Assembly: GCA_963821815.1 (NCBI GenBank)
Contig: CAWGFG010000005.1
Coordinates: forward strand, 26,956-90,955
DNA from: an uncultured Chloroflexia bacterium
GTDB lineage: Bacteria > Chloroflexota > Anaerolineae > Caldilineales > Caldilineaceae
DNA: 64,000 nt
Direction of reading: 5' to 3'
The position numbers and the translations under genes are program-made. Below are positions 1 through 61,305 of the stretch, one piece after another (positions within the stretch are counted from its first letter, which is position 1; every line of letters begins with the position of its first letter). The notes below the pieces were generated by a model. It saw nothing but the letters and a program-made list of their open reading frames with translations, had not been told where the DNA came from and did no database searches.

Positions 1-1
1 G

Positions 2-172
2 ATCGCATCGTTCAGTCGCGACCCAAAAGACGACTATCTAGTCGCCTACGGTATCGTCAATGAAGCTGAATATCTTATCACTGGCGATCAAGATCTTCTC
101 GTCTTGGACAGAGTAGGCGAGCTACAGGAACTCACACCTGCGGCGTTCCTAGAAGTTGCCCGCCGCCTGTAG
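2..172 (+). CDS. PIN-domain toxin, 3' end only (gene starts left of the window)
   Basis: Translates IASFSRDPKDDYLVAYGIVNEAEYLITGDQDLLVLDRVGELQELTPAAFLEVARRL*. Near-identical DNA and protein to the C-terminus of the PIN gene at 52393..52833. Stop TAG at 170-172. Confidence 0.8.
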   Translation: MASFSRDPKDDYLVAYGIVNEAEYLITGDQDLLVLDRVGELQELTPAAFLEVARRL

Positions 173-232
173 CTTCTGCCTTAGGTCCGCCGGATTGAGC
201 CTGTCGAAAAAATAAAAAGTGTGGTTTCCTTT

Positions 233-277
233 CCCCATCCCCTTTTAAAAGGCGAGTACCCTGGCACTTTTTTATGG
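233..277 (-). repeat. Inverted copy of the tnpA-upstream (left-end-like) motif of the IS200/IS605 element
   Basis: ccccatccccttttaaaaggcgagtaccctggcacttttttatgg is the reverse complement, with a few mismatches, of 38264..38308. Confidence 0.6.
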
Positions 278-547
278 AGGTGGAGCATCCCGCGCGGCTT
301 ACGCGTAAATTGGAAGCGTTTGCTTGTCTTACCGCAAGACTAGGACAGGTGGAAACGGCTGCGTATCTCTTTGCGCAACAGAGAGCTTCCAGGCTGCAAT
401 CCAGCTACTGTTTGCCCCCATCTGGCATCAGGAGCATGATCACCGGGTGGCCACCGCACGTACATAACTGGGGCAAGCGGCACTAGGAGATCTCGACACG
501 CTGGCCCGGCAGCAAGCGCAACAAGCTGTGGTCGATGTCTATCATAA

Positions 548-11520: not shown

Positions 11521-11835
11521 GTACTCCGCCTTGTCAAAGGGGATGAGAAATGGCACGCTCTCCTGGCTCCCCGTTCGTTCCACTACTGTCAACTGGTCCA
11601 TTATCACACCAAAATGACGGTGAAACACATACGACATTCTGTCTACGAAATCAACGATCCCTTCGATTGGGTTCCGCTCTACCGGCGCCCTGCTCCGGTT
11701 GACGGTACAGCGTCTCAACGGGTTGAGTTGCTGCAAGAAAAGAGTTACGAACTTGATGGTGAGAGTTTGCTTGTGAGCGTACTGCCAGACCCCATTCACC
11801 TGTTCACTCAACGCGGTCAGAGCAGGTACGACTGA
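11521..11835 (+). mobile_element. IS200/IS605 stump: partial left-end-like motif plus truncated, degenerate tnpA
   Basis: 11521..11613 aligns to 38281..38373. The ORF from ATG 11614 (MTVKHIRHSVYEINDPFDWVPLYRRP...) parallels TnpA at 38374, but the HUH motif is PIHL and the frame ends after about 73 aa. Confidence 0.75.
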
Positions 11836-24639: not shown

Positions 24640-24850
24640 TTGCGGCGCACCCACAGATGTATGAAAATAGCGTGTGCGGCATCCGCGACGCAGGTCGGAT
24701 GTTTACTGGATACTACGAGTCCGTTCGTTAGTTTGACCAGCGTGTTGCGAGGCACCCCAGACTGTTACCCCCGAAAGGGTGAGTACGTAAGGGAGAATCT
24801 TACTAGGGGCGACACGCCGTGGATGCCGGTGACGTTGGAGTTGCATCTGC
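24640..24850 (+). ncRNA. candidate IS110 bridge (guide) RNA in the non-coding left end
   Basis: An AT-rich promoter-like stretch (24587..24635) is followed by about 200 nt rich in GC hairpins (gcgccttgcggcgc, cccccgaaaggg, etc.) upstream of the recombinase ATG. Placement matches the IS110-group architecture. No covariance evidence. Confidence 0.35.
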
Positions 24851-24861
24851 GGGAGGCAAAC

Positions 24862-26103
24862 ATGCAAGTCGAATACCAATACTGTTGCGGACTGGATGTG
24901 CACAAGGATACGGTGGTAGCGTGTGCGATCGTGCCAGGCGCCAAGGGCAAAGCAACAAAGGAGACCTGCACCTATAGAACGATGACCGAGAGTCTGCGCA
25001 GTCTGGCTACATGGCTGCAGACAAAAGAGGTCACGCACGTGGCCATGGAAAGCACTGGGGTCTACTGGAAACCGATCTTCAACATTCTCGAAGGCGAGTT
25101 CGAGTTATGGGTCGTCAACCCAGAGCAGATCAAGAAGACACCAGGACGCAAGACCGATGTGTCGGATGCCGAGTGGATCGCAGACCTGTTACGCCACGGG
25201 TTGTTGCGCGGTAGTTTTATACCGTCGGCGCAGCAGCGTGCGTGGCGTGACTTGACCCGCTATCGCACACGTTTGGTGGATGAACGCACCAGTGAAGTAA
25301 ATCGTCTACATAAAGTGCTCCAGGATGCCAACCTCAAGCTGGCCAGTGTGGCGACCGACGTGATGGGTGTGAGCGGACGGCTGATCTTGCAGCATTTGCT
25401 GGCAGGAGAAACCGACCCAGCCACATTGGCCCAACTAGCGAAAGGTCGGCTGCGAGAAAAGCAGCAATTGCTAGAGCAAGCATTGCAAGGTAAATTGTTG
25501 CCCCATCATCGCTTCATGCTGACCGAGCATCTCAGCCACATTGACTACCTTGATGAAACGATTGGCCGCCTGGATGCGGAGATTGAAGAACAGATGCGCT
25601 CGTTTGAAGAAGAACTGGCGCGCTGGGCTCAGCTACCAGGCGTGAGTACGCGTATCGCCCAAATCGTTTTGGCGGAAGTGGGTACTGACCTCACTCAGTT
25701 TGAGGATGCCGCTCACTTAGCTTCCTGGGCGGGTCTCTGCCCGGGCAATCACGAGAGTGCCGGCAAACGCAAGAGTGGCAGGACCCGCAAAGGCAGTGTC
25801 TGGCTGCGCAGAGCGCTGACCGAAGCAGCCCACGGCGCTGCAAACACGAAGAATAAATACTACCGGGCTATGTATCACCGCCTCGTCGGCCGTCGGGGTA
25901 AGAAACGCGCCCTGATAGCTGTGGCCCACAGTCTCCTCGTGACCGGTTATTACCTCATTACACGCAAGCGTGATTACGAGGACCTCGGCCCCAACTACTT
26001 TGATGAGCGCGCACGTGAATCCGTTAAGCGCCGCACCGTTCGTCGGTTAGAGCGTCTTGGCTATCAGGTAACCTTAACTCCTGTCCCGGAGATGGCCATG
26101 TAA
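24862..26103 (+). CDS. IS110-family DEDD transposase/recombinase
   Basis: [21 protein letters not shown]...[12 protein letters not shown]...[11 protein letters not shown]...PGVS..IAQ..LAEVG..F.....LASWAGLCP....SAGK. ATG at 24862 follows GGGAGG. The ORF-track start at 24640 is upstream read-through. Confidence 0.9.
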
Positions 26104-33794: not shown

Positions 33795-34003
33795 GGTGCG
33801 CTTCTTTCAGTAGAGTCATATAGGGTAAAGCGGACGCACGCCCCCTCCTTCCGCCATCCGTCACGGTCCGATACCGAGCTGGCGACGATTTTCCATGTGA
33901 CCAATTATTATGTCGAGTACCAATACCGGGCTGCGACGGGGCAAGCATTTGCACAGCATCATCCTGGAGATCGAGAGCGGCTCGCAGATCCCCTGGCACT
34001 TTT

Positions 34004-34560
34004 TTATTGGTGGGGTATAGTGGGCCCGGCCCGTTCGAGCCAGGCCTTGGCATCCAGTGTCAGTACCTCGGACGCCTTGTTCTCGTACTCGTCGAGTTCG
34101 TCCTCTGTCAGCACATCTCGCCAGCGGCCATTTGTTCCCTTATAGAAAAATGAACGCGCTCCTCCTACCCACTTGCTAGAATTGTTGAAGCCCTCTCGTT
34201 CAGCACGGGTACGCATCGCGGTGAGGCTGGTTTGCTGTGCAATCTGTGATGGTGAGGAGGGAGACGCGTCAAACCACAGACCGAGTCGATGGAGGCTTTG
34301 CCTTTCCGGGCGCCGTAGCGCTGGATGAGGATGACCTGTGCCACATCGCTCCATTGGTCAGCGTGTGTGCCGTGCGGGAACTGGCGGCCGACAGCATTAC
34401 CCCCGCATCTGTTGCGCCACACCATTCGGCTCGCCACTGCATGCGTCTTCCTGGAGGCTTTGTGAGCTTGGCGTGGGTGTTGGGTAATCGTACAGTTCGG
34501 TTCCCGCAGGTCTACGGACAGCCGGCAGAGGAAGAGAGGGTCGAGCGCAGTAAGCCAGAT
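34004..34560 (-). pseudogene. sulfotransferase-like remnant
   Basis: C-terminal FFYKGTNGRWRDVLTEDELDEY resembles the sulfotransferase F.RKG..G.W...t motif. Upstream parts lie in other frames. Confidence 0.3.
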
Positions 34561-37095: not shown

Positions 37096-37300
37096 TCGAC
37101 GACGGGGATTCGGCCGCAATGGCCTGCATTGCGGCGCGCCTACGCAAGGCGGCTCCTGGGCTAGATGTTGTGCCAATACAAGCAGGCGCGACGGATTTAC
37201 CGGCGGCGGAGCAGCAGAGGGCGGCGGCGCAACTGGAGCAAGCGGAGGTCATAGTCGCTCCCTGGTCGCTCTACCTCAAGCAGGAAGGGACATCACCCTC

Positions 37301-37340
37301 GTGACCTGCTCCATCGCTTTAGCGGGGGAGAGCAGGTCAC
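37301..37340. repeat. Right-end-type hairpin at the left edge of unit A
   Basis: gtgacctgctcc-atcgctttagcgg-gggagagcaggtcac. The 3' 27 nt match the IS605 right end (39893..39919) almost exactly. Confidence 0.8.
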
Positions 37341-37346
37341 ATAGAG

Positions 37347-37550
37347 GTGCAGACTATGATGAGCAAGAAGGACTTCGCAGCGATAAAAACACTGAATAAG
37401 CGTGGTGTCTATCAGAAGGACATCGCAGAACAGGTGGGCGTACATCCCAGGACCGTGAGCAACTCCTACCGAAACGGCGACAAACCGCTTGCGCTTACAA
37501 AGGGGGCTCTGTTACAGGAGAAATTATTTAGACTTCTTAATACTTCTTGA
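37347..37550 (+). pseudogene. IS21 IstA N-terminal HTH stub (67 aa)
   Basis: MSKKDFAAIKTLNKRGVYQKDIAEQVGVHPRTVS is typical of IstA N-termini. The ORF stops before any DDE domain. Confidence 0.6.
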
Positions 37551-37611
37551 TAGGCAGTCAGTTCTTCATCGGACTCCCACTGCCACGTTCGCGTCAAGCC
37601 TCACTTGTGTG

Positions 37612-37842
37612 TCACCAGAGGTTTGTATATGTATCTGCTGTTCGAGGCTTTACGGCTACAATGATCACCCTGTCGCCCTTCACCTGATAGATGATACGCC
37701 AGCCATCGATCTGGATACGGCGCAAACCCGCCAATTCCCGGCCTAATGCCTTACTATCAGGTGGCCTTGGCTCCTCTTGCAGATCGAGAATGATCTCCAG
37801 CATGTCTTTGCTCAGGCGAGGGGGCACCGTACGCAAGGCCAC
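37612..37842 (-). CDS. RelE/ParE-family toxin
   Basis: ...ILDLQEEPRPPDSKALGRELAGLRRIQIDGWRIIYQVKGDRVIIVAVKPR. The conserved N-terminal residues (YQLELTDKAQ) lie upstream of the first canonical start, up to about 37872. Confidence 0.75.
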   Translation of the reverse strand: MALRTVPPRLSKDMLEIILDLQEEPRPPDSKALGRELAGLRRIQIDGWRIIYQVKGDRVIIVAVKPRTADTYTNLW

Positions 37843-37861
37843 CTGTGCCTTGTCTGTTAGC

Positions 37862-38149
37862 TCAAGTTGGTACTGAATTGCCGATCAAGGCCCGGAGGCC
37901 TGCCTCGTCGATTGGGGTGGTTGAGTTCTCGCCTCGCTCCAGTTCCAGTAGCCCCTCCAACCCGGTCACAAGATCGTCCAGGTCTTCCAGCCGTTCGGCG
38001 ATTTTGTTCCACTGCTCGGGCGAAACGATGACAGCCACAGGTTTGCCCTTGCTGGACAGCATGACCGGACTCTCTTTTGCCTTGCTGATTACGTCCAGAT
38101 GCCGATGGCGAATATCGCTAACCGTTGCCGTCTGCGGTAGTTTATTCAT
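37862..38149 (-). CDS. Phd/YefM-family antitoxin
   Basis: TVSDIRHRHLDVISKAKESPVMLSSKGKPVAVIVSPEQW. GAGGTG RBS. Its stop overlaps the start region of the toxin. Confidence 0.85.
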   Translation of the reverse strand: MNKLPQTATVSDIRHRHLDVISKAKESPVMLSSKGKPVAVIVSPEQWNKIAERLEDLDDLVTGLEGLLELERGENSTTPIDEAGLRALIGNSVPT

Positions 38150-38263
38150 GGTTGCACCTCGTATGTCATTAAAATGTCATCTAGTGATATCGTAGCAGGT
38201 AAAAGATTAGAAGTCAATCGTGTCACCGCCAATATTAAACTCCCCAGAAACGCCATCGGAGGT

Positions 38264-38340
38264 CCATAGAAAAGTGCCAGGGTACTCCCCTTTTCAAAGG
38301 GGATGGGGAATGGCACGCTCTCCTGGTTCCCCGTTAGTTC
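38264..38340 (+). repeat. tnpA-upstream (left-end-like) motif, reference copy
   Basis: ccatagaaaagtgccagggtactccccttttcaaaggggatggggaatggcacgctctcctggttcccc. Partial copies at 233, 11521, 43181, 52890 and 54564. Confidence 0.7.
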
Positions 38341-38373
38341 GATTAATTTCATCTAGTCCAGTATCTTACCAAA

Positions 38374-38766
38374 ATGACGGTGAAACGCACACGACATTCT
38401 GCCTACGAAATCAACTATCACTTCGTGTGGGTTCCGCTATACCGGCGACCGCTTCTGGTTGACGGTATTGCGTCTCAACTGGTTGAGTTGCCGCAAGAGA
38501 AGACTTGCGAACTTGAGGGCGAAATCTGGCATGTGAGCGTACAGCCTGACCACGTTCACCTGTTCTACAGCGTCCTGCCTACGTTTGCGCCCCACCAGAT
38601 CATGCACCGGCTCAAGGGGTACAGCGCCCGCATGCTGCGCAAAGAGTTTCCTCATCTGCAAAGCGAGATGCCGATCATGTGGACGCGCGCCTACTGTGTA
38701 GGGACGGCTGGCACTGTATCGGCTAAGACGATTCAGCGATACATTGAGGAGCAGGGGGGCAGGTAG
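38374..38766 (+). CDS. tnpA: IS200/IS605 Y1 (HUH) transposase
   Basis: 130 aa. YHFVWVPLYRRP, HUH as HVHL, C-terminal WTRAYCVGTAG...IQRYIEEQ with the catalytic Tyr region. Confidence 0.9.
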   Translation: MTVKRTRHSAYEINYHFVWVPLYRRPLLVDGIASQLVELPQEKTCELEGEIWHVSVQPDHVHLFYSVLPTFAPHQIMHRLKGYSARMLRKEFPHLQSEMPIMWTRAYCVGTAGTVSAKTIQRYIEEQGGR

Positions 38767-39902
38767 GTGATCCGCACGGTCAAGTACCGCTTGTCGCCGA
38801 CGAAAAAGCAGCGCTTTGTGCTGGACGCTCTCTTTTTTCAGATGCAGACCGTCTACAACGATGCGTTGAACGAACGGCGCTGGTACTGGCGCAGGAGTCG
38901 GCGCAGCATCAGCTACTGCGACCAATGGAAACGGATGCGCAATAACGGCACAAGTACCCCGACGAAAGAGGGTTGTTGGACGCCACGTCGATCCAGCAAA
39001 TGCTTCGCCGTGTGGATAAGGTGAGCCGGGCGTTTTACCAGGGGCAACGGGGAGCGCCGCGATTCAAGGGGCGCACCCGCTTCAAGAGCGTGGAGTACCG
39101 CTGCAGGGACGGTTGCAAACTGTGCGGCAACAGGCTGTACGTGCAACACGTGGGGGAGATTCCAGTCAGGCTGCATCGTCCGCTTCCGGAGGACGCCGTG
39201 AGTAAGCAGGTCATCCTCAAGCGCAGCCTGGATAAGTGGTATGTCTGCTTTCAGATCGAGCTGCCCGACCCCGAACCTATCGTCCACAGCGGTCCAGCCG
39301 TGGGTGTGGACGTCGGTTTGCACAGCCTGTTGGCGTTTTCCGACGGCACGTTGGTCGACAATCCACGCTGGCTGCGAAGCGGATTGCGCAAGCTGCGAGT
39401 CGCACAACGTCGCCTGTCCAGGCGCAAGAAGTACAGTTCGGGGTGGCGCAAGGCCGCTCGACAGGTCGCCAAGCAGCACGAGCATGTGGCCAATCAGAGG
39501 CGTGACTTCTGGCACAAGACCACAACCGAGCTCGCCCAAACGTACGGCCTGATTGCCATCGAGGAGTTGAATCTGGCGTTTATGACCCGCAACGGCCATT
39601 TGTCCCTGTCCGCACACGACGCGGCGTTGGGCATGTTCCGGCAAATGTTGAGCTACAAAGTCGAAAATACTGGTAGCCGGCTCGTTGCTGTGGACCCGCG
39701 CAACACGAGCCAAGCGTGTAGCGGTTGTGGGGTGATTGTCGCCAAAGGTCTGAACGTTCGTACCCATCATTGTCCTGACTGTGGCGTTGAGCTCGATCGG
39801 GATGTCAACGCTGCTCGGAATATTCTTGCCCGTGGACTGCGGGTTGAGGCGCTAACGTATCCGGTTGCGGACTGCGTAGCCTCAGATGCTCCCTCGCTTT
39901 AG
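38767..39902 (+). pseudogene. tnpB: TnpB (RuvC-like RNA-guided nuclease), frame change near 38940-38950
   Basis: ORFs 38767..39024 and 38973..39902. RuvC-I GVDVGL, RuvC-II IAIEELN, zinc finger CSGCG..CPDCG and RuvC-III DRDVNAARNI are all present in the second frame. Confidence 0.85.
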
Positions 39903-39919
39903 CGGGGAGAGCAGGTCAC
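39740..39919 (+). ncRNA. candidate omega (right-end) RNA scaffold of TnpB
   Basis: By analogy with characterised IS200/IS605 TnpB systems, the guide RNA spans the tnpB 3' end through the right-end hairpin (ctccc-tcgctttagcg-gggag...caggtcac). The 5' limit is a guess. Confidence 0.35.
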
Positions 39920-40384
39920 GCCTTCCCCGCTCGTTCAGGTCCGCTCGTCGCTCTCTTCGACACCTTTCTCAACGATTTTGTCTTCTGGTCGATGGTGAAG
40001 GCAGCCCCCAAGGTACTGCTGGTGGCGCTCGGCGTGCCAATGGCGGTGCAGGAGCAGCTATCGGAGGCGGAAACGGCGGAACTCCACGCGTTCCTTGAGT
40101 CCATCGTGCCGATGGGTGCACGACGTGTGGGCCAACTGCTGGAACAGCACATGTCCGAATATGACACGACGCCGATTCACACAATCGAAGCAGCGACGCT
40201 GGTACTCCACGCGCCCGATGACACACTGGTCCCGATGGAGCACACGGAGTTCACCGATCAGTATGTGCCTGACGTTACGCTAGTGCCCATGCAGGAAGGC
40301 GGTCATCTGGCCTTGCTATTCAACAGGAATGCAGCGGCGCAGGAAGAGCTTCGCGGATTCCTGGCACAGCACAATTCGCAGTAA
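39920..40384 (+). pseudogene. alpha/beta hydrolase, C-terminal fragment starting at the unit A boundary
   Basis: The frame is open from the right end. ...ATLVLHAPDDTLVPMEHTEF...VPMQEGGHLALL is the Asp/His end of the fold. No N-terminal half exists on the other side of the unit. Confidence 0.55.
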
Positions 40385-40394
40385 AGGCACAGTG

Positions 40395-40616
40395 CTAGTT
40401 GGCTCCCTACGCCGAGAATGTCTCGATTACATGCTTGTGCTCAACCAGGAGCGTCTCAATATCATCACTCGAGACCACGCCAAGTACTACAACAGGTGTG
40501 CGCCGCGTCAAGGATTGGCGCAGAGCATCCCAGTTCTGTTGGATGATCCGCCGGCTACGGGTGGGGGCGTCGCTCTTCCGGTGCTCGGTGGTTTACACCA
40601 TTCACAAGTCATTTGA
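40395..40616 (+). pseudogene. rve (integrase-core) transposase, C-terminal fragment
   Basis: VGSLRRECLDYMLVLNQERLNIITRDHAKYYNRCAPRQGLAQSIP matches the conserved tail of IS481/IS3-type DDE transposases. Confidence 0.55.
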
Positions 40617-43180: not shown

Positions 43181-43226
43181 TCCCATCGAAAAGTACCCTG
43201 GCACTTTTCTATGGATCGCGAATGGC
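43181..43226 (-). repeat. inverted partial copy of the tnpA-upstream motif
   Basis: cccatcgaaaagtaccctggcacttttctatggatcgcgaatggcg matches the reverse complement of 38249..38300, with an internal gap. Confidence 0.6.
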
Positions 43227-51900: not shown

Positions 51901-52063
51901 AGGTCGGCAGGAGACTGGGCCAGCGCCAGGCGTAGAGCCGCCAGGAAAATATCGGTTGCATTTCATTGTGGCATCCAGTATACTTGTAGTTAACATGTTG
52001 TCCATCATCTTGGACAACACTTTGATGCAAATTGCCGTCTGACCGATGCAAGGAAATCGTCCT

Positions 52064-52396
52064 ATGCCCAAGACCGTGACGTCCAGTGAAGCCAAGACTC
52101 GCTTTGGCCAACTTGTGAAATGGACAGCAGAACATCGAGATCAGGTCATCGTCAAGCTGTATGGCGAGCCTATGGCGGTGCTCATGTCCTTTTCCGAATA
52201 CGAAGAAGTGGAGAAACTGCGTAAACGCGAGCGGAAGCGCAAAGCGCTCGATGCGCTTGATGCGCTGCGCCAAGAGGCGCGAAATCAGAATCCGGACCTA
52301 TCTGCCGAAGAAGCCTACCGGTTTGCAGGTTTCTCTGAAGAGGTCGTTCAGGAGACAGTCCAGGCTGATGAAGAGTTGGCTTCATCGCAGCGGTGA
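52064..52396 (+). CDS. Phd/YefM-family antitoxin
   Basis: MPKTVTSSEAKTRFGQLVKWTAEHRDQVIVKLYGEPMAVLMSFSEYE. AAGGAA RBS. Its stop overlaps the PIN start. Confidence 0.85.
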   Translation: MPKTVTSSEAKTRFGQLVKWTAEHRDQVIVKLYGEPMAVLMSFSEYEEVEKLRKRERKRKALDALDALRQEARNQNPDLSAEEAYRFAGFSEEVVQETVQADEELASSQR

Positions 52397-52833
52397 GAGT
52401 CCTCATCGATACCAACGTCTTCCTGAGCTACATTCTTGCGCCTGCGGAGCCGCGGGTAGTCACGACCGTGATCACGATGTGCCTCACAGATGACGATATC
52501 GACCTATTGATCCCGCCTGAGCAGATCAGCGAGATAACCGCAACCGTCACCGGGAAACGGTACTTCCGTGAGCACATACCTCTCACTCTTATCGACGATC
52601 TCGTGGCCCAGCTCATGGCGTTAGGCGACATGCTGCCGCGCCTGGACGAGATCGCATCGTTCAGTCGCGACCCAAAAGACGACTATCTAGTCGCCTATGG
52701 TATCGTCAATGAAGCTGAATATCTTATCACTGGCGATCAAGATCTTCTCGTCTTGGACAGAGTCGGAGAGCTACAGGTACTCTCACCTGCGGCGTTCCTA
52801 GAAGCTACCCGCCGCCTGAAGCTTCTGCCTTAG
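52393..52833 (+). CDS. PIN-domain toxin (TIGR00305-like)
   Basis: VLIDTNVFLSYIL...SRDPKDDYLVAYGIVNEAEYLITGDQDLL. GTG start overlaps the antitoxin stop. Confidence 0.85.
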   Translation: MRVLIDTNVFLSYILAPAEPRVVTTVITMCLTDDDIDLLIPPEQISEITATVTGKRYFREHIPLTLIDDLVAQLMALGDMLPRLDEIASFSRDPKDDYLVAYGIVNEAEYLITGDQDLLVLDRVGELQVLSPAAFLEATRRLKLLP

Positions 52834-53653
52834 ATTCGCAGAATTGAGCCTGTAGAAAAAGTAAAAAGTGTGGTTTCCTGTCCACCGTTCCATAGAAGAG
52901 TGGCAGGGTATAAAGGCTACCCGAAACCGCACCATTCCCAATGGGAATCATCCGGCTTGTGTTGAACGGAACAACACTCTTCGAACCGCCATTCGACAAG
53001 ACTTTCAGCCACTGCGGAGACAGAACAAAGGGGCGGCCGGTTGTTTGGTGACTTGCACAGCCCTTGACTCTGGCGAGCAATTGCTAAGCTTCAAGTCGAT
53101 GGCCGTTCGAAATGCTAGCGTGATTGTTCCTTTCGCAAGCGGCAGACCGCAGGAGTTGTGCGGGCGTTCGATCCTGGTCCGCCCATAGAGAAAACGCTGT
53201 TGGAGAAAGGGAGTAGGAATGTCGCATATTCCCAAAACTGATGCCGGTCTTCTATGAAGGGTGAAGTGAGCTGTTGCCATCCATCACTTCAACGCAATCG
53301 CGTACCGTCTCTGGCATCGTACGGCGCGCCTTATCTTTTGACGTTGTGAATGATGACAAATAGACGCCGCAATTGCCCCGCAGGAGGAGTATCCTAGCGT
53401 TCAGGAAGTTCAAACATCCAGCCTGGCTGACAGATGATAGAACCCTCGAGTTATCGAGCGCTACAGCAAACCATTACCGAGTGTGTGACGACTGATCGGG
53501 GTCTGTTGGATGGGCTACGCTCGGAAGTCAGAACCCTGCGATCCAAGACGCGGCGCATCCGATCCCGCGTCGGGTCCACGGTTTCTTTGGTGGGTGCGGG
53601 TGACCTGCTCCATCGCTTTAGCGGGATCAGCAGGTCACATGGAGGTGCAGACT

Positions 53654-53848
53654 ATGATGAGCAAGAAGGGCTTCGCAGCGATTAAAACACTGAATAAGCG
53701 TGGTGTCTATCAGAAGGACATCGCAGAACAGGTGGGCGTACATCCCAGGACCGTGAGCAACTCCTACCGAAACGGCGACAAACCGCTTGCGCTGACAAAG
53801 GGGGCTCTGTTGCAGGAGAAACTATTTAGACATCTTAATACTTCATGA
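53654..53848 (+). pseudogene. IS21 IstA N-terminal HTH stub, copy B
   Basis: MMSKKGFAAIKTLNKRGVYQKDIAEQVGVHPRTVS. The frame is still open, as in unit A. Confidence 0.55.
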
Positions 53849-53855
53849 TAGGCAG

Positions 53856-54146
53856 TCAGTTCTTCGTCTGATACTCCCACTGCCACGTTCGCGTCAAGCT
53901 CCTGACTCTGTGTGTCACCAGAGGTTTGTATATGTATCTGCTGTTCGAGGCTTTACGGCTACAATGATCACCCTGTCGCCCTTCACCTGATAGATGATAC
54001 GCCAGCCATCGATCTGGATACGGCGCAAAACCTGCCAATTCCCGGCCTAATGCCTTACTATCAGGTGGCCTTGGCTCCACTTGCAGATCGAGAATCATCT
54101 CCAGCATGTCTTTGCTCAGGCGAGGGGGCACCGTACGCAAGGCCAC
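53856..54146 (-). pseudogene. RelE/ParE toxin, frameshifted copy
   Basis: Matches unit A through ...PPDSKALGRELAG (1-2 substitutions), then goes out of frame. The adjacent Phd copy (about 54160..54450) has no intact ORF. Confidence 0.7.
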
Positions 54147-54678
54147 CTGTGCCTTGTTTGTTAGCTCAAGTTGGTACTGAATTGCCGATCAAGGCCCGGA
54201 GGCCTGCCTCGTCGAATGGGGTGGTTGAGTTCTCGCCTCGCTCCAGTTCCAGTAGCCCTCCAACCCGGTCACAAGATCGACCAGGTCTTCTAGCCGTTCG
54301 GCGATTTTGTTCCACTGTCGGGCGAAACGATGACAGCCACAGGTTTGCCCTTGCTGGACAGCATGACCGGACTCTCTTTTGCCTTGTTGATTACATCCAG
54401 ATGCCGATGGCGAAGATCGCTAACCGTTGCCGTCTGCGGTAGTTTATCCAGGATTGCACCTCGTATGTCATTAAAATGTCATCTAGTGATATTGTAGCAG
54501 GTAAAAGATTCGAAGTCGATCGTTCACCGCCAATATTGAACTCCCAGAAACGCCATCGGAGGTCCATAGAAAAGTGCCAGGGGATTCTCCTTTTCAAAGG
54601 GGATGGGAATGGCGCGCTCTCCTGGTTTTCCGTTAGTTTTACACATTTCATCTAGTCCAGTACCATACCAGAACGACG

Positions 54679-55150
54679 GTGAAACGCACTCGACATTCTG
54701 CCTACGAAATCAACTATCACTTCGTCTGGGTTCCGCTATACCGGCGACCGGTTCTGGTTGACGCTGTAGCGTCTCGACTGGTTGAGTTGCTCCAAGAAAA
54801 GAGTCACGAACTTGAGGGTGAGATTTTGCATGTGAGCGTACAGCCTGATAGCCATCGAGGAGTTGAATCTGGCGTTTATGACCCGCAACGGCCATTTGTC
54901 CCTGTCCGCACACGATGCGGCGTTGGGCATGTCCCGGCAATTGTTGAGCTACAAAGTCGAAAATACTGGTAGCCGGCTCGTTGTTGTGGACCCGCACAAC
55001 ACGAGCCAAGCGTGTAGCGGTTGTGGGGTGATGGTCGCCAAAGGTCTGAACGTTCGTACCCATCATTGTCCGGACTGTGGCGTTGAGATCGATCGGGATG
55101 TCAACGCTGCTCGGAATTTCTCGCCCGCGGACTGCGGGTTGAGGCGCTAA
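54679..55150 (+). pseudogene. tnpA-tnpB deletion fusion
   Basis: TnpA residues 1-57 (the ATG is mutated) are joined at CCTGA (about 54844) to the TnpB C-terminus (IAIEELNLAF...CSGCG..CPDCG..DRDVNAARN). Confidence 0.8.
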
Positions 55151-55374
55151 CGTATCCGGTTACGGACTGCGTAGCCTCAGAAGCTCCTCGCTTTAGCGGG
55201 GAGAGCAGGTCACGCGTACGCAATACAGGTTCGTCTACTGCAGGACTCTGCTGATCTTCCAGATATGAAATGGTTTTGTGCTCAAGAAGCCGCAAGCAGC
55301 AAGGTTAAATCTCATGGTTCAGATTGAGCGGCAAAGCAGAGATGATTCAGAAAGGCTAGGTCGAGTCTCCCTAT

Positions 55375-57567
55375 TTGATAGCGTGTTGGCCCGGGTTCGT
55401 CACGGGGAGTTCACGTCAGAAGAAGGCTGCTAAAGAGCTGCTTGCGCGACTGAATCAAAAGGAGCGGCTCGGGATGCTTGACGGGGATCAGCGTCTATGG
55501 CCTGGCCTCGGTGCTTTCTTCCTCAGGGGATACAATCATAAACCCCTTATCGCCGGCGCAGTGGAACGGCTGGGCATCCCCGGTATCCGCTTTACCGACG
55601 GACCGCGGGGCGTGGTCATCGGTCGCTGCCACATGCTTCCCGGTCACCTCTGCCCGTGGCGCCAGCTGGGACAGTGCGCTCGAAGAAGAGATCGGGCGGG
55701 CCATCGGCATCGAGGCTCGTGCACAGGGAGCCAACCTCTTCGGTGGTATCTCTGCTGACGTGCTCCGCCACCCAAAATGGGGACGTGCACAGGAGAGCTA
55801 CGGCGAGGATCCGGTTCATGTCGGCTTGATGGGTGCAGCACTTACCACAGGAGTGCGCAAGCACGTCATGGCCTGCGTGAAACACTTTGCCCTTTACGCT
55901 ATCGAGCAGTCCCGGTTTTCTGTTGACGTCGCGGTCGACGAAGTGGCGATGCACGAAGGATTATCTGCCTCCATTTCGCACCGTAATCGAGGCTGGTGCT
56001 GACGCTGTGATGAGCGCATACAACTCCGTAAACGGCGAGTGGGCTGGACAGAACCGTAGCTTGCTCACGGATATTCTCCGCGACGAATGGGGATTCAGAG
56101 GCTTCGTCATTTCCGATTTCATCTGGGGATTCCGGGACGCCGTGAAGTCACTGCTGGCAGGACTCGATGTAGAAATGCCATTTTCGCAAATGCGCGCCCG
56201 AAAACTGCCTGCTGCGCTACGGGAGGGTAGACTATCGCCGGAGGTTGTCGACCGGGCCGCGCTTCGCGTCTTAGCCGCACAGTTGCGCCACTACGCGACT
56301 ATTGATGAACTCGTTCCATCCACAGAGGTGCTCGTATGCGAGCAGCACCGTGCGCTCGCTCGGAAGGCCGCTGCTTCGGGCATGGTGCTCCTGCGCAACG
56401 AGCCCGATGGAGATGGACAGGCGCCACTTCTTCCGCTAGGCACGGACATTGAGTCCATAGCCGTGCTCGGTACCCTCGCCGATCAAGCAAACCTCGGCGA
56501 TAGCGGCTCTTCCGCTGTCGATCCGCCGTACGGGGTCAGTCCGCTGTCCGGCGTTCGCGCAATGATGCCAAATGCTCGCGTCGAATATTACCCAGGTAGC
56601 GATGTGGCTGCCGCTGCGGAACTGGCACGCCGTGCCCATATCGCGCTTGTCGTAGTGGGCTGGGATGGCAACGGGGAGGGCGAGGCGCTCGTCGTCAACG
56701 ACCCAGACGCAGCGTCGATGATGGGGCCTACCTTTGCAAACAAGCTAGTATCCAACATCTTCATCGGGTCGCTTAGGTTGATCACCAAGGCAAAGCTGTT
56801 TCCCATGGGAGGCGACCGGGAACGTCTGACGTTGTCGAAGCATGAGGAGCATCTCATACGGTCGGTGGTTGCCGCCAATAAGCGAACGATTGTCGTCATT
56901 GTCAGCGGCAGCGTAGCCGTGATTGAATCATGGCGCGATCAGGTTCCGGCGATTGTGATGGCCTGGTATCCTGGCATGGAAGGCGGCAATGCGCTCGGCG
57001 ACATCCTTACCGGCATCGTGGAGCCGGGTGGTCGTTTGCCCGCCGCTATACCCGCTGATCCCGCACATTTACCGGATTTCGACAACACGTCGCGCCACGT
57101 GCGCTACGATCGTTGGTGGGGTCAGAGGAAGCTCGACCGGGATGGTCACTTGGCAGCGTTTCCGTTTGGCTTTGGACTGGGATATACGACGTTCGAACTG
57201 AGTGATCTCACTGTGAAGGTCCATCTGGGAACCGCAATGGGCGCCGATGTAGGCTCCCTTGCGGCGAGTGTAACTGTCCGCAATACCGGCGAACGCAGAG
57301 GTTCTACGGTCGTACAGTTGTACGCTGTGGCTGACACTGCCTCTTCAGCAGACCGTCCGCGTCGCCAATTACTCGGTTTTTCGAAGGTAGAAGTTGACGT
57401 TGGTGAAGGTTGCGTTGTTTCACTCCGAGGCACATTACTGCCACTGGCACGGCGTGATGTCACTACGCGTATGCTGGTCCCTTGTAGCAGGAAACTACCG
57501 TCTGGAGGCAGCACAGTACAGTGGCGACCCCAACGCCGCAACGACTACAATTATTCTCCACGCGTAG
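55375..57567 (+). pseudogene. glycoside hydrolase family 3 (beta-glucosidase-like), at least four frame changes
   Basis: GIPGIRFTDGPRGV, KHFALY, VMSAYNSVNGEW, FRGFVISDF, GYTTFE and the C-terminal VAGNYRLEAAQYSGDP lie in different frames. Confidence 0.85.
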
Positions 57568-58089
57568 GCGTTCGCCTGACTTGGGCGAGCGTGGCACAGC
57601 CGACTCGAGCACGTGGGCTTCGGTCTTCACGCTGTCTAGGGAATCTTCAGAACTACTGACATCAGTATTTCTAACAACGTCTCGTATTTTAAACTGCGTC
57701 TGCAGACAGACGAATATCCGTATTCTGACGCGCATTCGCTAAGCAGGATACCAAATGTGGTATGGAGAATCATTCCGCTCGGGTATCTACCGGCGACTGC
57801 AGTGTCGTCCAGACAATGCCCGTGACCGACAACAGCGCCGACAGGATGGTCGCCGGCCGCCAACGACGCAGTTCTGTCACACGGCGGCTCACACGTCGAA
57901 GCTTCCAGAAGAGTAAGACCACGATGGACAGCCTGATCCATCCATGGATCACAAAGAGCAGGCGGCCTTGCGGCCTGCCCACGGTAAAAGAGATCAAACC
58001 GGTCACAACTTCGAACAGACCAGTACCAAGAGCGCCCAGTCAACGGCGCGTGCGCTCATCCCCATGTCGTATTGTGATCTCGCTTCGCT

Positions 58090-58656: not shown

Positions 58657-58855
58657 GAATCGTATGGTCCCATCTCACCCCCTTTAAGATCTATGATCCC
58701 ACTATCGCACGTCGTCGTCAACCTCGTCAGCTTGCTGTATTTGACGTTGAGTACCTGCACCTACAGATTCTACAGGACGTTGAGTCTGGGTTCGTTTAGC
58801 GCACTGCCGTGGATAATCTGGCGAAGTTCGAATCGGCCGCACCAAACCCGGATGG

Positions 58856-58948
58856 TCACTCTTACTGCTGCGGACTGGATGCGCACAAGGAGACGGTGGT
58901 TGCCTGTGTCATCGTGCCTGGTCCCAAAGGTAAGCCATCGTTCTGAAT
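58856..58948 (+). mobile_element. IS110-family transposase N-terminal stump (second lineage)
   Basis: YCCGLDAHKETVVACVIVPGPKGKPSF* parallels residues 7-30 of the transposase at 24862. Confidence 0.6.
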
Positions 58949-61305
58949 GTGCGGAAGCAAAGCAGCAGCAACACCGTCACCGTAGCCGACGATGTGAACG
59001 AAGAACTGAACGCCATTCGAAGCGAGCATCCGAACCTGGATATTGCAGTGACCAGCGATCAGTCCATCCGAGTCAAGGAAGCCACTGGCGGCGCGCTAGA
59101 CGATCTGTTATATGCCGTGATCCTGGCGTCCATCGTCATGTTCATCTTTTTCAAAGATATCCGTAACACGTTGGTCACGATTGCGGGTTTGCCCGTGATC
59201 CTGATCAGCACGCTCTTCTTTATGTCTCTCTTCGACATCTCGTTGAACCAAATTTCTCTGCTGGCGTTGGCGTTGGTGGTGGGTTTGGTCATTGACGACG
59301 GCATTGTTGTGCGCGAAAACATTCTTCGCTGGGTGGAAAAAGGATATTCACCACGAGTGGCGGCTGACTCGGGACGGCGGAAGTCGCGATGCCCGTGATT
59401 GCCATCAGCGTAACCATCCTCGCTGTTTTCCTGCCCGTAGCCTTTGCCCAAGGCATTATCGGCAAATTCTTCTTGGATTTCGGGTTGACCGTTTCGATTG
59501 CCGTGACCCTCTCCATTTTTGAAGCGATGACCATGGCGCCTATGCTCAGCGCCTATTTCTTCAAGAAAGACAAGAAGGACGTTATCGACGTGGAGGACTT
59601 GAGTGAACTGGACAATCTGGATGAGAAGAATTACGCAATCGAGGATGAAATTGAAGAAGCCAGCGGCCAAACAAGGGCGTCTCAGCCGCGGCTACGGCGC
59701 ATTTCTAGACTGGACGCTGCGCCATAAGCTAGTGGCTGGCGTGAGCGCAATCCTCATCATCGCGGTCAGTTTCTATAGTGTCACGCTGATCCAGTTCAGC
59801 TTCCTGCCGGAAATGGAGGCGTCTGAGTTCACCATCACTATGTCCATGCCAGGCGGCACGCCCCAGGACTTGACGGCGGTTGAAGCCGTAGCGGTGGAGA
59901 ACATCTTACGTGAGCATCCCGCGACCTCCGATGTTGTCACCGTGATTGGTGAACAGGGAGCGCCGGAAGAGGCTACATTCACGGTCGCCCTGAAGGACGA
60001 CCTGAGCAAGGAGGTTACGGCTGACACGGTGATGGAAGATCTGCGTCAGCCGCTGGCCGATGTGCCGGGCGTCATCATGAATACGGCAGGGAATGAACTG
60101 ATCGGCGCCGACACCGACATTACGATCGAGGTCATTGTCGTGCAGGGGGTGGATACAGCGAACTGGGCAGCCAGGCTGAATATGTCGCCGAACAGATTGC
60201 CGCCTTGCCAGACTTGACCGACATTGATGTGAGTTATAAGTCCGGGCGCCCTGAAATGCAGTTGAACATTGACCGCCAGCCACGCGTCTGACCTTGGTCT
60301 GAGCCCGGCGCAAATCGCTTCTACCGTGCGATTGCTGCTCAACGGCGACGTAGCGACCACCTTCCGCGGCGAAGGCGCGGACGCCGATATCCGGGTCCAA
60401 CTGGCAGAAGAAGATCGGGCCAGCGCCCAAGATATTCTGAATATCAATCTCATGGCAATGAGCGGGCAACTGGTACCGCTGCGCAATGTGGCCGAGATGG
60501 ATGTGGCGACCAGCCCGAACGCCATTTCCCGCTCCGATCGCATGCCAACCATCATCGTCAGCGCCAACGTAGCGAACGGCCGTTCAGTGCCCCTGGTTTC
60601 GCAACAAGTCGAGGAACTGCTCGAAGGCTTGGAACTATCTAGGGTACAGAACTGAGACTTGGCGGCACCGCCGATGATCTGAAAGATGCCCGCAGCAGCT
60701 TGCTGCTGGCCTTCGGCTTGGCCGTTATCTTTATCTATATGGTGTTAGCCAGTCAGTTCGGCAGCTTCATTCAACCCTTCATCATCATGTTGGCCATGCC
60801 GCTGGCGATTGTCGGCGCCATCCTAGCCCTACTGCTTACCGGCAAACCGCTGGATATGACGGCCATGATCGGTTTTATCATGCTGATGGGCTTGGTCGTC
60901 AAGAACTCTGTGCTGCTGGTGGACTTCGCCAATCGCGCCCGCAGAAAGGGTGCCAGTGCGGATGATGCCATGCGCATCGCCGGTCCCATCCGCCTGCGTC
61001 CGATTCTGATGACTGCCCTCTCCATGATTCTGGCAATGATCCCCATTGCGTGGGGCATGAATGAGGGAGGCGAGTTCCGCCAACCGATGGCCGTCGCCAT
61101 TCTGGGCGGCATGATTACAAGCACACTCTTGACCTTGCTGATCGTACCGCTTAGCTACGGAGCCGTGATTGGATTCCAGGATCGTCTCTTCGCACGACGC
61201 AGGGCGCGTCGTGCAGAGAAGGAGCAACGTGTGGCGGATCAGCAGGAGCGACATTCGCCAAGCCCACTTACGAATCGGGATGCCACGCTGTCGGTCAGCG
61301 ACTAG
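58949..61305 (+). pseudogene. RND (AcrB/HAE1-type) efflux permease, 5'-truncated and frameshifted
   Basis: Five consecutive ORFs in changing frames carry RND TM and porter segments (LVVGLVIDDGIVVRENI; FLPEMEASEF; MLAMPLAIVGAILALLLTG...VKNSVLLVDFA). About the first 300 aa are absent. Confidence 0.85.

What the first reader, a model, noticed from the sequence alone, without database searches (positions are those of the whole stretch)
37301..39919. A 2.6-kb unit carrying RelE/Phd, an IS21 stub and IS605 tnpA-tnpB is bounded on both sides by the same hairpin and occurs twice with identical ends
Homology between 37301..39919 and 53600..55213 begins at gtgacctgctccatcgctttagcggg... and ends at ...gagagcaggtcacgc in both copies. 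Sequences outside are unrelated on both sides.

The left hairpin shares 27 nt with the IS605 right end. The unit therefore looks like [right-end-type hairpin]-cargo-[tnpA-upstream motif]-tnpA-tnpB-[right end].

In IS200/IS605 elements the two ends carry similar hairpins recognised by TnpA. One reading is that this whole segment is the transposable unit, and that an addiction module has been captured as cargo. The alternative is a solo right end from an older copy that happened to be co-duplicated.

A toxin-antitoxin pair riding inside a TnpA/TnpB element would be an unusual way of stabilising it.
Basis: partly seen in the sequence, partly recalled or inferred. Interest (0 to 1): 0.65.

Follow-up and report, generated by a model that had tools for sequence, protein, structure and literature searches.

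The report
Duplicated IS605 element plus captured neighbours
A small jumping gene landed twice around an ordinary toxin-antitoxin locus, and the resulting block was later copied once. It is a decaying relic, not a demonstrated new kind of toxin-carrying transposon.

Summary
Blocks 37301-39919 and 53600-55213 are 94-96% identical, start and end at the same bases, and have unrelated flanks. Copy B also carries a 991-bp internal deletion.

The main interpretation is not supported. Relatives and two empty sites place the real IS200/IS605 element at 38268-39919. It has a left-end (LE) hairpin, tnpA, a frameshifted tnpB and a right-end (RE) stem-loop, and it sits 3' of TCCAT.

The 927 bp to its left (HTH stub, ParE/RelE, Phd) is chromosomal DNA. 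Related metagenome contigs L021 and L023 carry it without the IS and without the hairpin.

In those contigs a CCCAT motif lies exactly where the left hairpin sits here. The hairpin aligns with the last 44 nt of the RE, minus CAGAT and with AG changed to GA. It is therefore a solo RE from an older insertion, remodelled into a perfect palindrome.

The block has no LE-type left end and no shared target motif on its left. It exists only twice in the data, and the toxin-antitoxin genes of copy B are dead.

How the block was copied with such exact ends is unresolved. That keeps a minority transposition reading alive.

The parts
37301..37340 (+). Left hairpin of copy A. A 40-nt palindrome, read as a solo right-end (RE) remnant of an older insertion of the same IS.
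   Evidence: It aligns with RE 39876-39919, minus CAGAT and with GTAGCC changed to GTGACC. It is stable as ssDNA, -17.2 kcal/mol, z -5.1. It sits exactly where the empty sites L021/L023 have CCCAT|.
37341..38267 (.). Captured chromosomal segment of copy A, 927 bp: HTH stub, spacer, ParE/RelE, Phd and its upstream region. It ends in the TCCAT target.
   Evidence: 92-93% identical to L021 and L023, which carry neither hairpin nor IS.
37356..37550 (+). The family cannot be assigned.
   Evidence: Pfam HTH_23, E 7e-4. NCBIfam IS630 E 0.025 and IS21 E 0.04, both far below cut-off. The same stub is present in L021 and L023.
37612..37878 (-). ParE/RelE-family toxin gene. The full-length frame starts at ATT where relatives have ATG. 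The listed ORF starts at GTG 37842 and gives 76 aa.
   Evidence: Pfam ParE_toxin 1e-7; TIGR02385 RelE_StbE 1.2e-5; start-codon comparison.
37862..38149 (-). Phd/YefM antitoxin gene, 95 aa.
   Evidence: Pfam PhdYeFM 3.8e-9; TIGR01552. Its 90% cluster has 7 other members on other contigs.
38263..38267 (+). TCCAT target motif. The IS lies directly 3' of it.
   Evidence: Empty sites L021/L023 read GGTCCAT|TTCTCC. YCCAT precedes every LE of this family that was examined.
38268..39919 (+). The actual IS200/IS605-family insertion sequence of copy A, 1652 bp.
   Evidence: Relatives L013 and L014 align from 38262/38264 to 39919/39920. Empty site. The RE ends at TCAC| in all relatives.
38268..38325 (+). 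Left end (LE): a 17-nt linker AGAAAAGTGCCAGGGTA followed by a nested hairpin.
   Evidence: 3 of 12 base pairs show compensatory changes among relatives; fold.
38374..38766 (+). tnpA, a Y1 HUH transposase of 130 aa, apparently intact.
   Evidence: Pfam Y1_Tnp 2.4e-34; NF033573 130 bits; PDB 2f4f 1.9e-31 and IS608 TnpA 2a6m 7.9e-25.
38767..39902 (+). tnpB, an RNA-guided nuclease gene split by a 1-nt frameshift near 38944 into ORFs 38767-39024 and 38973-39902.
   Evidence: Pfam HTH_OrfB_IS605, OrfB_IS605 and Cas12f1-like_TNB; NF040570 2.7e-71; ISDra2 TnpB 8bf8 4.8e-35; ORF list.
39876..39919 (+). Right-end (RE) stem-loop, GTAGCCT-CAGAT-hairpin-AGGTCAC. The element ends after TCAC.
   Evidence: Alignment and pairing. 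Flanks diverge right after TCAC in 7 relatives. Sub-threshold Rfam HgcC hit over this region.
39920..40384 (+). Right flank of copy A: the C-terminal 154 codons of an alpha/beta hydrolase gene, cut at the RE.
   Evidence: Pfam Abhydrolase_4/1. Matches residues 164-315 of the 316-aa homologue P0139. The N-terminal half is nowhere in the window.
53600..53638 (+). Left hairpin of copy B, 39 nt, with the same 5' GTGACCT arm.
53639..54567 (.). Captured segment of copy B. Phd has no start codon and is frameshifted; ParE is frameshifted.
   Evidence: 90-91% identical to L021/L023; about 97% to copy A; frames.
54568..55213 (+). IS remnant of copy B: LE, the 5' part of tnpA, a 991-bp deletion, the 3' part of tnpB and the RE.
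   Evidence: The deletion junction lies at a GCCTGA microhomology.
11521..11831 (+). Third, internally deleted remnant of the same IS (copy C): partial LE, about 200 bp of tnpA, then the RE 3' arm and tail. No TA upstream.
   Evidence: 84% identical to 38282-38565; ends in GCGGTCAGAGCAGGTAC.

Best explanation
**What it is.** The repeat is not one transposon. It is a 927-bp piece of ordinary chromosome (an HTH-stub ORF plus a ParE/RelE-Phd toxin-antitoxin pair) that the same IS200/IS605-family insertion sequence hit twice. Both insertions lie in the same orientation, and each lies 3' of a YCCAT target.

**The two insertions.**
- The downstream insertion is the present 1652-bp element at 38268-39919: LE hairpin, intact tnpA, frameshifted tnpB and RE stem-loop ending in TCAC.
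- Only the terminal RE stem-loop of the upstream insertion survives. Its imperfect outer stem, GTAGCCT-CAGAT, was converted into a perfect palindrome, GTGACCT. Template switching in quasipalindromes causes this kind of change.

**The copying.** The block hairpin-segment-IS was then copied once, to a site 16.3 kb away. Both copies have since decayed. Copy A has a tnpB frameshift. Copy B has a 991-bp deletion and dead TA genes. The IS parts have also exchanged sequence with other IS copies.

**What is shown.** The true IS ends and target, the two empty sites, the RE origin of the hairpin, and the decay.

**What is inferred.** The order of events, and the idea that copying and flank replacement came from recombination at IS copies and at the fragile palindrome rather than from TnpA peel-and-paste of the whole block.
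For: **True IS ends.** Relatives with 73-80% TnpB identity (L012-L017, L026) share the ends CCAT|AGAAAAG-hairpin and hairpin-...TCAC|, and diverge immediately outside them. The LE stems covary.

**Empty sites.** L021 and L023 align with window 37344-38267 at 92-93%. They read GGTCCAT|TTCTCC where the window has the LE, and TTCCCAT|AAGGAGGTGCAG where the window has GGTCAC|AT(A/G)GAGGTGCAG.

**Origin of the hairpin.** It aligns with the last 44 nt of the RE.

**End geometry.** The LE linker is 17 nt and the RE linker 7-10 nt. This matches the IS608 asymmetry of 19 and 10 nt (PMC3597680). The left hairpin has neither an LE-type linker nor a preceding YCCAT.

**The TA is not IS-specific.** The same TA pair, at 87-94% nucleotide identity, sits in 5-6 other distinct contexts without this IS. 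No hairpin or LE motif occurs in those 59 kb.

**Copy number.** The TnpA and TnpB clusters are singletons among about 15 billion proteins. The stub cluster holds only copies A and B. The metagenome scan for the hairpin found only two ordinary REs.

**Mosaic identity.** A and B are 97% identical in the captured segment but 90.5% in LE plus the tnpA 5' part (Fisher p = 2e-5). The sites where B matches C but not A cluster at 38492-38528.

**Locus A was rearranged.** The hydrolase at A's right flank lacks its N-terminal half everywhere in the window. Locus A is therefore not a simple insertion.
Against: - Both copies share base-exact ends, although neither keeps the ancestral flanks seen in L021/L023. 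The right end is exactly the TnpA cleavage site. The left end is exactly the foot of the palindrome. Generic recombination does not predict this.
- The outer 11 bp of the palindrome are perfect, so the bottom strand also reads ...GAGCAGGTCAC|. An RE-type cut on that strand would fall precisely on the left boundary.
- tnpA of copy A looks intact, so a TnpA-dependent event cannot be excluded.
- With only two copies, and without the rest of the genome, the copying mechanism is untested.
Confidence: 0.65

Rival explanations
1. **The reader's main reading.** The 2.6-kb block is itself mobilised by TnpA. The RE-type hairpin would act as a surrogate end, by RE-to-RE excision or as a composite formed with the older IS copy. 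The TA pair would then be true cargo.
For: The ends are identical in two unrelated contexts, and neither context is the ancestral one. The right boundary is exactly TCAC|. The segment was once flanked by two directly oriented insertions of this IS, so a composite was possible. TnpA of copy A aligns end to end with solved Y1 transposases. In the relative L017 the LE and RE hairpins are almost the same sequence, so TnpA of this family probably binds both types.
Against: - An RE-type cut at the left hairpin falls 3' of it, at 37340|37341, so the hairpin itself would not travel.
- No YCCAT lies to the left of the block, and no LE-type 17-19-nt linker is present. PMC3597680 shows that linker length is critical. 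PMC5027513 shows that the left end always lies 3' of the specific target.
- The CAGAT that lies 5' of the inner hairpin in the real RE, where the guide sits in IS608, is deleted in the left hairpin.
- Only two copies exist. Relatives carry no cargo.
- Locus A is not a clean insertion.
Confidence: 0.15
2. **Read-through transposon.** There was never an older IS copy. TnpA of the present IS once cut at the upstream CCCAT, 927 bp to the left, instead of at its own TCCAT. The hairpin-to-segment joint would then be the RE-to-5'-end junction of that extended transposon, kept in a tandem or rolling-circle-like product.
For: The joint GGTCAC|A(T)(A/G)GAGG is exactly what RE joined to the base after CCCAT| would give. 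CCCAT is an acceptable target for this family, since L017 sits after GCCCAT.
Against: A single circle cannot yield a linear copy with the RE stem-loop at both ends. A further deletion down to the stem-loop foot is still needed. An independent second insertion explains the same joint using only known steps.
Confidence: 0.08
3. **Pre-existing palindromes.** The left hairpins would be members of a dispersed REP-like palindrome family already present at both sites. The segment-plus-IS would then have been joined to each of them by TnpA-mediated exchange at TCAC|.
For: The two left hairpins differ more from each other (4 of 40 positions, counting gaps) than the adjacent stub does (3 of 120). Exchange at TCAC| would give exactly the observed joints.
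Against: No solo copy of this palindrome occurs in the 64-kb window, in 59 kb of related loci or in the JGI metagenome scan. Both hairpins share the same complex derived state, which points to common descent. TnpA scores as IS200-type, not REP-associated (130 versus 18.8 bits).
Confidence: 0.05

Closest known systems
IS608 and ISDra2 (IS200/IS605 family, tnpA plus tnpB)
   Same: Y1 HUH TnpA and TnpB. Subterminal hairpins on one strand. A long LE linker and a short RE linker. Insertion 3' of a fixed 4-5-nt target with no target duplication and no terminal inverted repeats. The guide-like GGTA 5' of the LE hairpin is complementary position by position to CCAT, like AAAG and TTAC in IS608 (PMC5027513); this pairing is my inference.
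   Different: The target is YCCAT and the right end is TCAC. The LE has an extra covarying outer stem. This lineage has no relative above 80% TnpB identity in the databases searched. This copy is a pseudogenised element.
Composite transposon or translocatable unit (IS-cargo-IS)
   Same: The TA segment was at one time bracketed by two directly oriented insertions of the same IS. The bracketed block now exists twice.
   Different: The upstream IS is reduced to a 40-nt end, so no left end is available. I found no description of composite transposition for IS200/IS605 in the two literature searches I ran. That is not an exhaustive check.
Solo IS ends and PATE-type deletion derivatives of IS200/IS605
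   Same: The window holds isolated LE-type motifs (4) and an internally deleted LE-...-RE remnant (copy C). The left hairpin is a solo RE.
   Different: The solo RE has been perfected into a palindrome, and it marks the edge of a duplicated block.
One-ended or read-through mobilisation by HUH elements (IS91, ISCR)
   Same: An HUH transposase with one well-defined end could in principle carry adjacent DNA along.
   Different: Those are rolling-circle elements with ori and ter ends. Nothing here shows read-through, and the extra DNA lies on the left-end side, bounded by an RE-type structure.
REP / REPIN with RAYT (TnpA-REP)
   Same: A palindromic hairpin related to a Y1-transposase binding site, next to a Y1 gene.
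   Different: There are two copies rather than hundreds. TnpA is IS200-type. The hairpin is derived from the IS right end.

Membership tests
IS200/IS605 insertion sequence (applied to 38268-39919) | Y1 (HUH) transposase TnpA | tested here: met
   Pfam Y1_Tnp 2.4e-34. NF033573 at 130 bits against a cut-off of 55. Full-length match to solved TnpAs, including the HxH motif and the C-terminal Tyr region.
IS200/IS605 insertion sequence (applied to 38268-39919) | TnpB accessory nuclease downstream of tnpA | tested here: met
   OrfB_IS605 and Cas12f1-like_TNB; NF040570 2.7e-71; ISDra2 TnpB 4.8e-35. The gene is present but frameshifted near 38944.
IS200/IS605 insertion sequence (applied to 38268-39919) | Subterminal hairpins at both ends on the same strand, with the left cleavage site far 5' of the hairpin and the right one close 3' of it | tested here: met
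   The LE hairpin has compensatory pairs. The RE hairpin is conserved. Linkers are 17 nt (LE) and 7-10 nt (RE), against 19 and 10 nt in IS608 (PMC3597680).
IS200/IS605 insertion sequence (applied to 38268-39919) | Insertion 3' of a fixed tetra- or pentanucleotide, with no target duplication and no terminal inverted repeats | tested here: met
   The empty sites L021/L023 end at TCCAT|. YCCAT precedes the LE in A, B, L013, L014, L017 and the solo LEs.
IS200/IS605 insertion sequence (applied to 38268-39919) | Excision and integration through a single-stranded circle | not testable with these tools
   Needs a TnpA excision assay.
IS200/IS605-type transposon comprising the whole 2.6-kb block | A left end of LE architecture: target, linker with guide, then hairpin | tested here: not met
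   Homology between A and B starts at the first base of the palindrome. There is no linker, and the RE-type CAGAT is deleted.
IS200/IS605-type transposon comprising the whole 2.6-kb block | The same target motif immediately left of every copy | tested here: not met
   A has ...CACCCTC| and B has ...GGTGCGG|. Neither is YCCAT.
IS200/IS605-type transposon comprising the whole 2.6-kb block | The cargo travels with the element in related copies | tested here: not met
   L012-L017 and L026 have no TA and no upstream RE-type hairpin. The TA occurs without the IS in L018-L025.
IS200/IS605-type transposon comprising the whole 2.6-kb block | Several copies with identical ends in independent contexts, or a matching empty site | tested here: inconclusive
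   Two copies have identical ends and unrelated flanks. There is no third copy. Locus A lacks the other half of the interrupted hydrolase. The left flank of B has no homologue.
Type II toxin-antitoxin, ParE/RelE with Phd/YefM | A Phd/YefM antitoxin gene directly upstream of, and overlapping, a ParE/RelE toxin gene | tested here: met
   In relatives the 88-aa toxin starts at an ATG that overlaps the end of phd. In A, B, L021 and L023 this ATG is ATT. Copy B is a pair of pseudogenes.
Type II toxin-antitoxin, ParE/RelE with Phd/YefM | Toxicity that the antitoxin neutralises | not testable with these tools
   Needs expression tests.
IS21 | IstA (HTH plus DDE) and the IstB helper between terminal inverted repeats | tested here: not met
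   There is only a 64-aa HTH ORF. IS21 scores 13 bits against a cut-off of 160, and IS630 scores equally weakly. No other IstA or IstB match to it is found in the window.
REP / REPIN-RAYT | A high-copy palindrome family together with a REP-associated tyrosine transposase | tested here: not met
   Four hairpins in 64 kb, all at IS ends. REP_Tyr_transpos scores 18.8 bits against a cut-off of 80, versus 130 bits for IS200.

The most novel reading that the evidence does not exclude
The block could be a working double-RE element. The palindromic left end offers an RE-type TCAC| cleavage site on the bottom strand, exactly at the left boundary. The normal RE offers one on the top strand, exactly at the right boundary. 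TnpA, or a TnpA-induced break followed by repair, could then copy a 2.6-kb segment that carries a toxin-antitoxin pair. This would be a route for IS200/IS605 elements to move neighbouring genes that I did not find described.
Probability: 0.12. Interest if true: 0.65.

Novelty: new member of a known kind. Interest (0 to 1): 0.3.

Why it matters
As it stands, this is a well-resolved natural history of an uncatalogued IS200/IS605 lineage from a Chloroflexota-like genome.
- Its ends, its YCCAT target and presumably the matching TnpB target-adjacent motif are pinned down by real empty sites.
- It gives a clear example of a solo right end being perfected into a palindrome.
- It warns against reading genes that lie between IS-end hairpins as cargo.

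Only if the exact shared ends prove to be TnpA-dependent would it bear on a wider question: whether single-strand peel-and-paste elements can mobilise adjacent genes.

Tried and rejected
**Searches that added nothing**
- Exact look-ups of the window's own TnpA and TnpB found no contig on record, so I could not read the rest of the 100.7-kb source contig.
- The scan of reference genomes with TnpB gave only relatives at 56% identity or less, in Chloroflexota MAGs.
- The metagenome scan with the hairpin pattern gave two hits. Both are ordinary REs of complete or partial IS copies, with no solo hairpin and no block.
- P0038 loci were the same place in several samples and added only one more RE end.
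- The left-flank ORF of copy B has no homologue, so I could not test whether B is a clean insertion.
- Rfam gave only a sub-threshold HgcC match over the tnpB 3' end and RE.

**Ideas I dropped**
- I looked for the missing N-terminal half of the hydrolase next to the solo LE motifs and across the whole window. It is absent.
- I looked for residual tnpB or RE homology to the left of the hairpins. There is none above shuffled controls.
- I first thought GTGACC was made de novo by snap-back synthesis at a TnpA nick. The alignment shows it is the RE's own GTAGCC with two transitions and loss of the CAGAT loop.
- I considered independent IS insertions into two pre-duplicated segments. The right flanks are unrelated directly after the RE, so I rejected this.
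- I considered the similarity of ATAGAGGTGCAG to the start of the LE as a possible RE-LE junction. GGAGGTG is the ribosome-binding site of the stub and is present in the empty sites, so I rejected this too.
Full report
**1. Observation.**
The two blocks are real. blastn aligns 37301-38549 with 53600-54848 at 94.0% and 39541-39921 with 54837-55215 at 95.8%. Copy B lacks the equivalent of 38550-39540. This 991-bp deletion lies between two GCCTGA repeats.

Both copies begin at GTGACCTGCTCC and end at GAGAGCAGGTCAC(GC). Outside these points the flanks are unrelated. Local alignments of the left flanks with each other, and with the tnpB 3' end, score no better than shuffles.

The RE-type hairpin motif occurs only at the four block ends, against 0 expected by chance.

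Pfam, NCBIfam and PDB comparisons confirm a ParE/RelE toxin, a Phd/YefM antitoxin, a Y1 TnpA and a TnpB. tnpB is split by a frameshift near 38944. The 'IS21 stub' is only a 64-aa HTH ORF. Its similarity to IS630 and IS21 N-termini is sub-threshold.

**2. Where the insertion sequence really begins and ends.**
The closest TnpB relatives are 73-80% identical and come from metagenomes; named ones are Caldilineaceae and other Chloroflexota. I fetched six of their loci.

All share the same left end, CCAT|AGAA(A/T)AG, followed by a nested hairpin. All share the same right end, GTAGCC..AGAAGCTCCCCCGCTTTAGCGGGGAGAG....TCAC|. They diverge from one another directly outside these points. At the DNA level L013 and L014 align with the window from 38262/38264 to 39919/39920 and no further.

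The LE stems covary: 3 of 12 pairs show compensatory changes among five sequences.

The geometry fits the IS608 paradigm. There are 17 nt between the left cleavage point and the LE hairpin, and 7-10 nt between the RE hairpin and the end. IS608 has 19 and 10 nt, and there the linker length is critical (PMC3597680).

None of these relatives has a TA module or an RE-type hairpin upstream.

**3. The decisive result: empty sites.**
The Phd protein belongs to a 90%-identity cluster with seven other members. I fetched their loci.
- In L018-L020 only the TA pair (window 37608-38219) is shared, at about 90%.
- In L022, L024 and L025 the shared part runs from 37549 to 38186 or 38239.
- In L021 and L023 it covers 37344-38267 at 92-93%. 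That is the whole stretch between the left hairpin and the LE: stub, spacer, ParE, Phd and upstream region.

These two contigs carry neither the IS nor the hairpin. Read in window orientation, they show two things:
- ...CATCGAAGGTCCAT|TTCTCCATTGCG, where the window has ...GGAGGTCCAT|AGAAAAGTGCCAGGG.
- ...CAAATTCCCAT|AAGGAGGTGCAGACTATG, where the window has ...GAGCAGGTCAC|ATAGAGGTGCAGACTATG in A and ...CAC|ATGGAGG in B.

The present IS therefore inserted 3' of TCCAT. The left hairpin sits exactly 3' of a CCCAT, which is a legitimate target for this family (L017 sits after GCCCAT). IS200/IS605 elements always insert with their left end 3' of an element-specific tetra- or pentanucleotide (PMC5027513).

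No hairpin or LE motif occurs anywhere in the 59 kb of these related loci.

**4. What the left hairpin is.**
Aligned with seven RE sequences, the left hairpin matches the terminal 44 nt of the RE over its whole length. GTGACCT corresponds to GTAGCCT. The 5-nt internal loop CAGAT is missing. The rest is near-identical.

In the RE, GTAGCCT already pairs imperfectly with AGGTCAC. The two transitions and the loss of the loop make that stem perfect, which raises stability from -11.4 to -17.2 kcal/mol. A multi-site change of this kind, templated by the opposite arm, is what quasipalindrome template-switch mutation produces (PMC7202029). That attribution is my inference.

The deleted CAGAT lies where IS608 carries its right guide sequence. 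The remnant may therefore no longer be a TnpA substrate; this is also inference.

**5. Is the 2.6-kb block a transposon?**
Evidence against:
- It has no LE-type left end, because homology starts at the first base of the palindrome.
- The bases to its left are CACCCTC and GGTGCGG, not YCCAT.
- An RE-type cut at the hairpin would fall 3' of it and leave the hairpin behind.
- The block exists only twice. The TnpA and TnpB clusters are singletons among about 15 billion proteins, the stub cluster holds only A and B, and the metagenome scan found only ordinary REs.
- Locus A is not a clean insertion. Its right flank is the C-terminal 154 codons of an alpha/beta hydrolase that matches residues 164-315 of the 316-aa homologue P0139. 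The missing 163 codons are nowhere in the window. The homologue has Ser-His just before the break, and such codons can spell the CCAT target. This suggests that an IS copy once inserted there and that the left part was later lost, for example by recombination between IS copies (inference).
- The IS parts are mosaic. A and B are 97% identical in the captured segment but 90.5% in LE plus the tnpA 5' part (p = 2e-5). Sites shared between B and the third remnant C cluster at 38492-38528. This indicates exchange among IS copies.

Evidence for:
- Neither copy keeps the ancestral flanks seen in L021 and L023.
- The ends are identical to the base.
- The right end is the TnpA cleavage site.
- Because the palindrome is perfect, the bottom strand also reads ...GAGCAGGTCAC| exactly at the left boundary.
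- tnpA of copy A looks intact.

I cannot explain the exact left boundary with a known mechanism. Fragility of the palindrome or a TnpA-dependent event are the candidates.

**6. The toxin-antitoxin pair.**
It is a multi-copy chromosomal family in this lineage. It is found in 5-6 other distinct contexts without the IS.
- In A, B, L021 and L023 the toxin start codon ATG is ATT.
- In copy B, Phd has lost its start codon and is frameshifted, and ParE is frameshifted.

The pair cannot be stabilising copy B, and nothing links it functionally to the IS.

**7. Verdict.**
The main interpretation is not supported, and the alternative interpretation is supported.

The region holds a new member of the IS200/IS605 family with YCCAT and TCAC ends, a solo RE turned into a palindrome, and a TA locus caught between them. 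The block was duplicated once and is decaying.

About 0.65 of my belief goes to this history, with the copying done by recombination or palindrome fragility. About 0.15 goes to TnpA-dependent mobilisation of the block, and the rest to variants. Interest is modest unless the exact ends prove to be TnpA-made.

Noticed in passing
window 257-277(-), 33989-34009(-), 43194-43214(-), 52890-52910(+): Four isolated LE-type motifs, CCAT|AGAAAAGTGCCAGGGTA with up to 3 mismatches, occur with no tnpA next to them. They are truncated at different points, and 0 are expected by chance. Similar dispersed CCATAGAAAA...GGGGAC motifs occur in the Phototrophicaceae loci L007-L010.
   Followed up: partly
window 11521-11831: A third remnant of the same IS (copy C): a 5'-truncated LE plus about 200 bp of tnpA (84% to copy A), joined directly to GCGGTCAGAGCAGGTAC, the RE 3' arm and tail. 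It resembles a PATE-type internal deletion derivative.
   Followed up: partly
window 1-290 and 52650-52930: Two PIN-toxin paralogues are 94% identical over 234 bp. Right after the shared GTGTGGTTTCC, one is followed by an inverted LE fragment and the other by a forward one. The adjacent TCCACC..TCCAT is also inverted. This is an inversion with a breakpoint inside the LE hairpin.
   Followed up: partly
window 37876-37878; L018-L023 around 6272: The ParE start codon is ATG in L018-L020 but ATT in window copies A and B and in L021 and L023. This sub-lineage of the toxin may be poorly translated or inactive.
   Followed up: partly
window 39828-39932: A sub-threshold Rfam match to HgcC (RF00062, 17.8 bits, E 0.61) lies over the tnpB 3' end and RE. 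The hairpin and the GAGGAGGUCAG-like tail align. This is probably the 3' part of the TnpB guide-RNA scaffold.
   Followed up: no
window 38290-38549 versus 54590-54848 versus 11529-11805: The tnpA 5' region is a mosaic. B-specific changes cluster at 38315-38391 and A-specific changes at 38492-38528, where B agrees with copy C. This points to gene conversion among IS copies.
   Followed up: partly
window 37294-37350: In copy A only, the palindrome continues imperfectly into the flank. CACCCTC on the left pairs with GAGGTG on the right of the hairpin. This could be chance or a trace of a longer inverted duplication.
   Followed up: no
window 12440-17435 (-): Two very large ORFs (985 and 744 aa) are built from roughly 153-nt periodic repeats. 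They look like a repeat-rich surface or adhesin-like protein gene, possibly one gene split in two.
   Followed up: no
window 52046-52833; L021 4406-5172: A second TA pair, Phd with a PIN toxin, lies 770 bp upstream of copy B. An unrelated Phd-PIN pair lies at a similar distance from the TA locus in L021. The region is dense in TA modules, transposase fragments (an rve-like ORF at 40329-40616 by eye, no Pfam hit, and IS110-like by eye at 24640-26103 and 58693-59166, not scanned) and frameshifted genes (GH3 at 55375-57659).
   Followed up: no
L014 1661-1700 versus L015 1593-1660: Two contigs encode the identical TnpB (P0003). They differ just after the RE by an inverted 17-nt stretch (ACAGGACGATATGTGTG versus its reverse complement) before rejoining the same flank. 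This could be an assembly artefact or a small inversion at the guide position.
   Followed up: no
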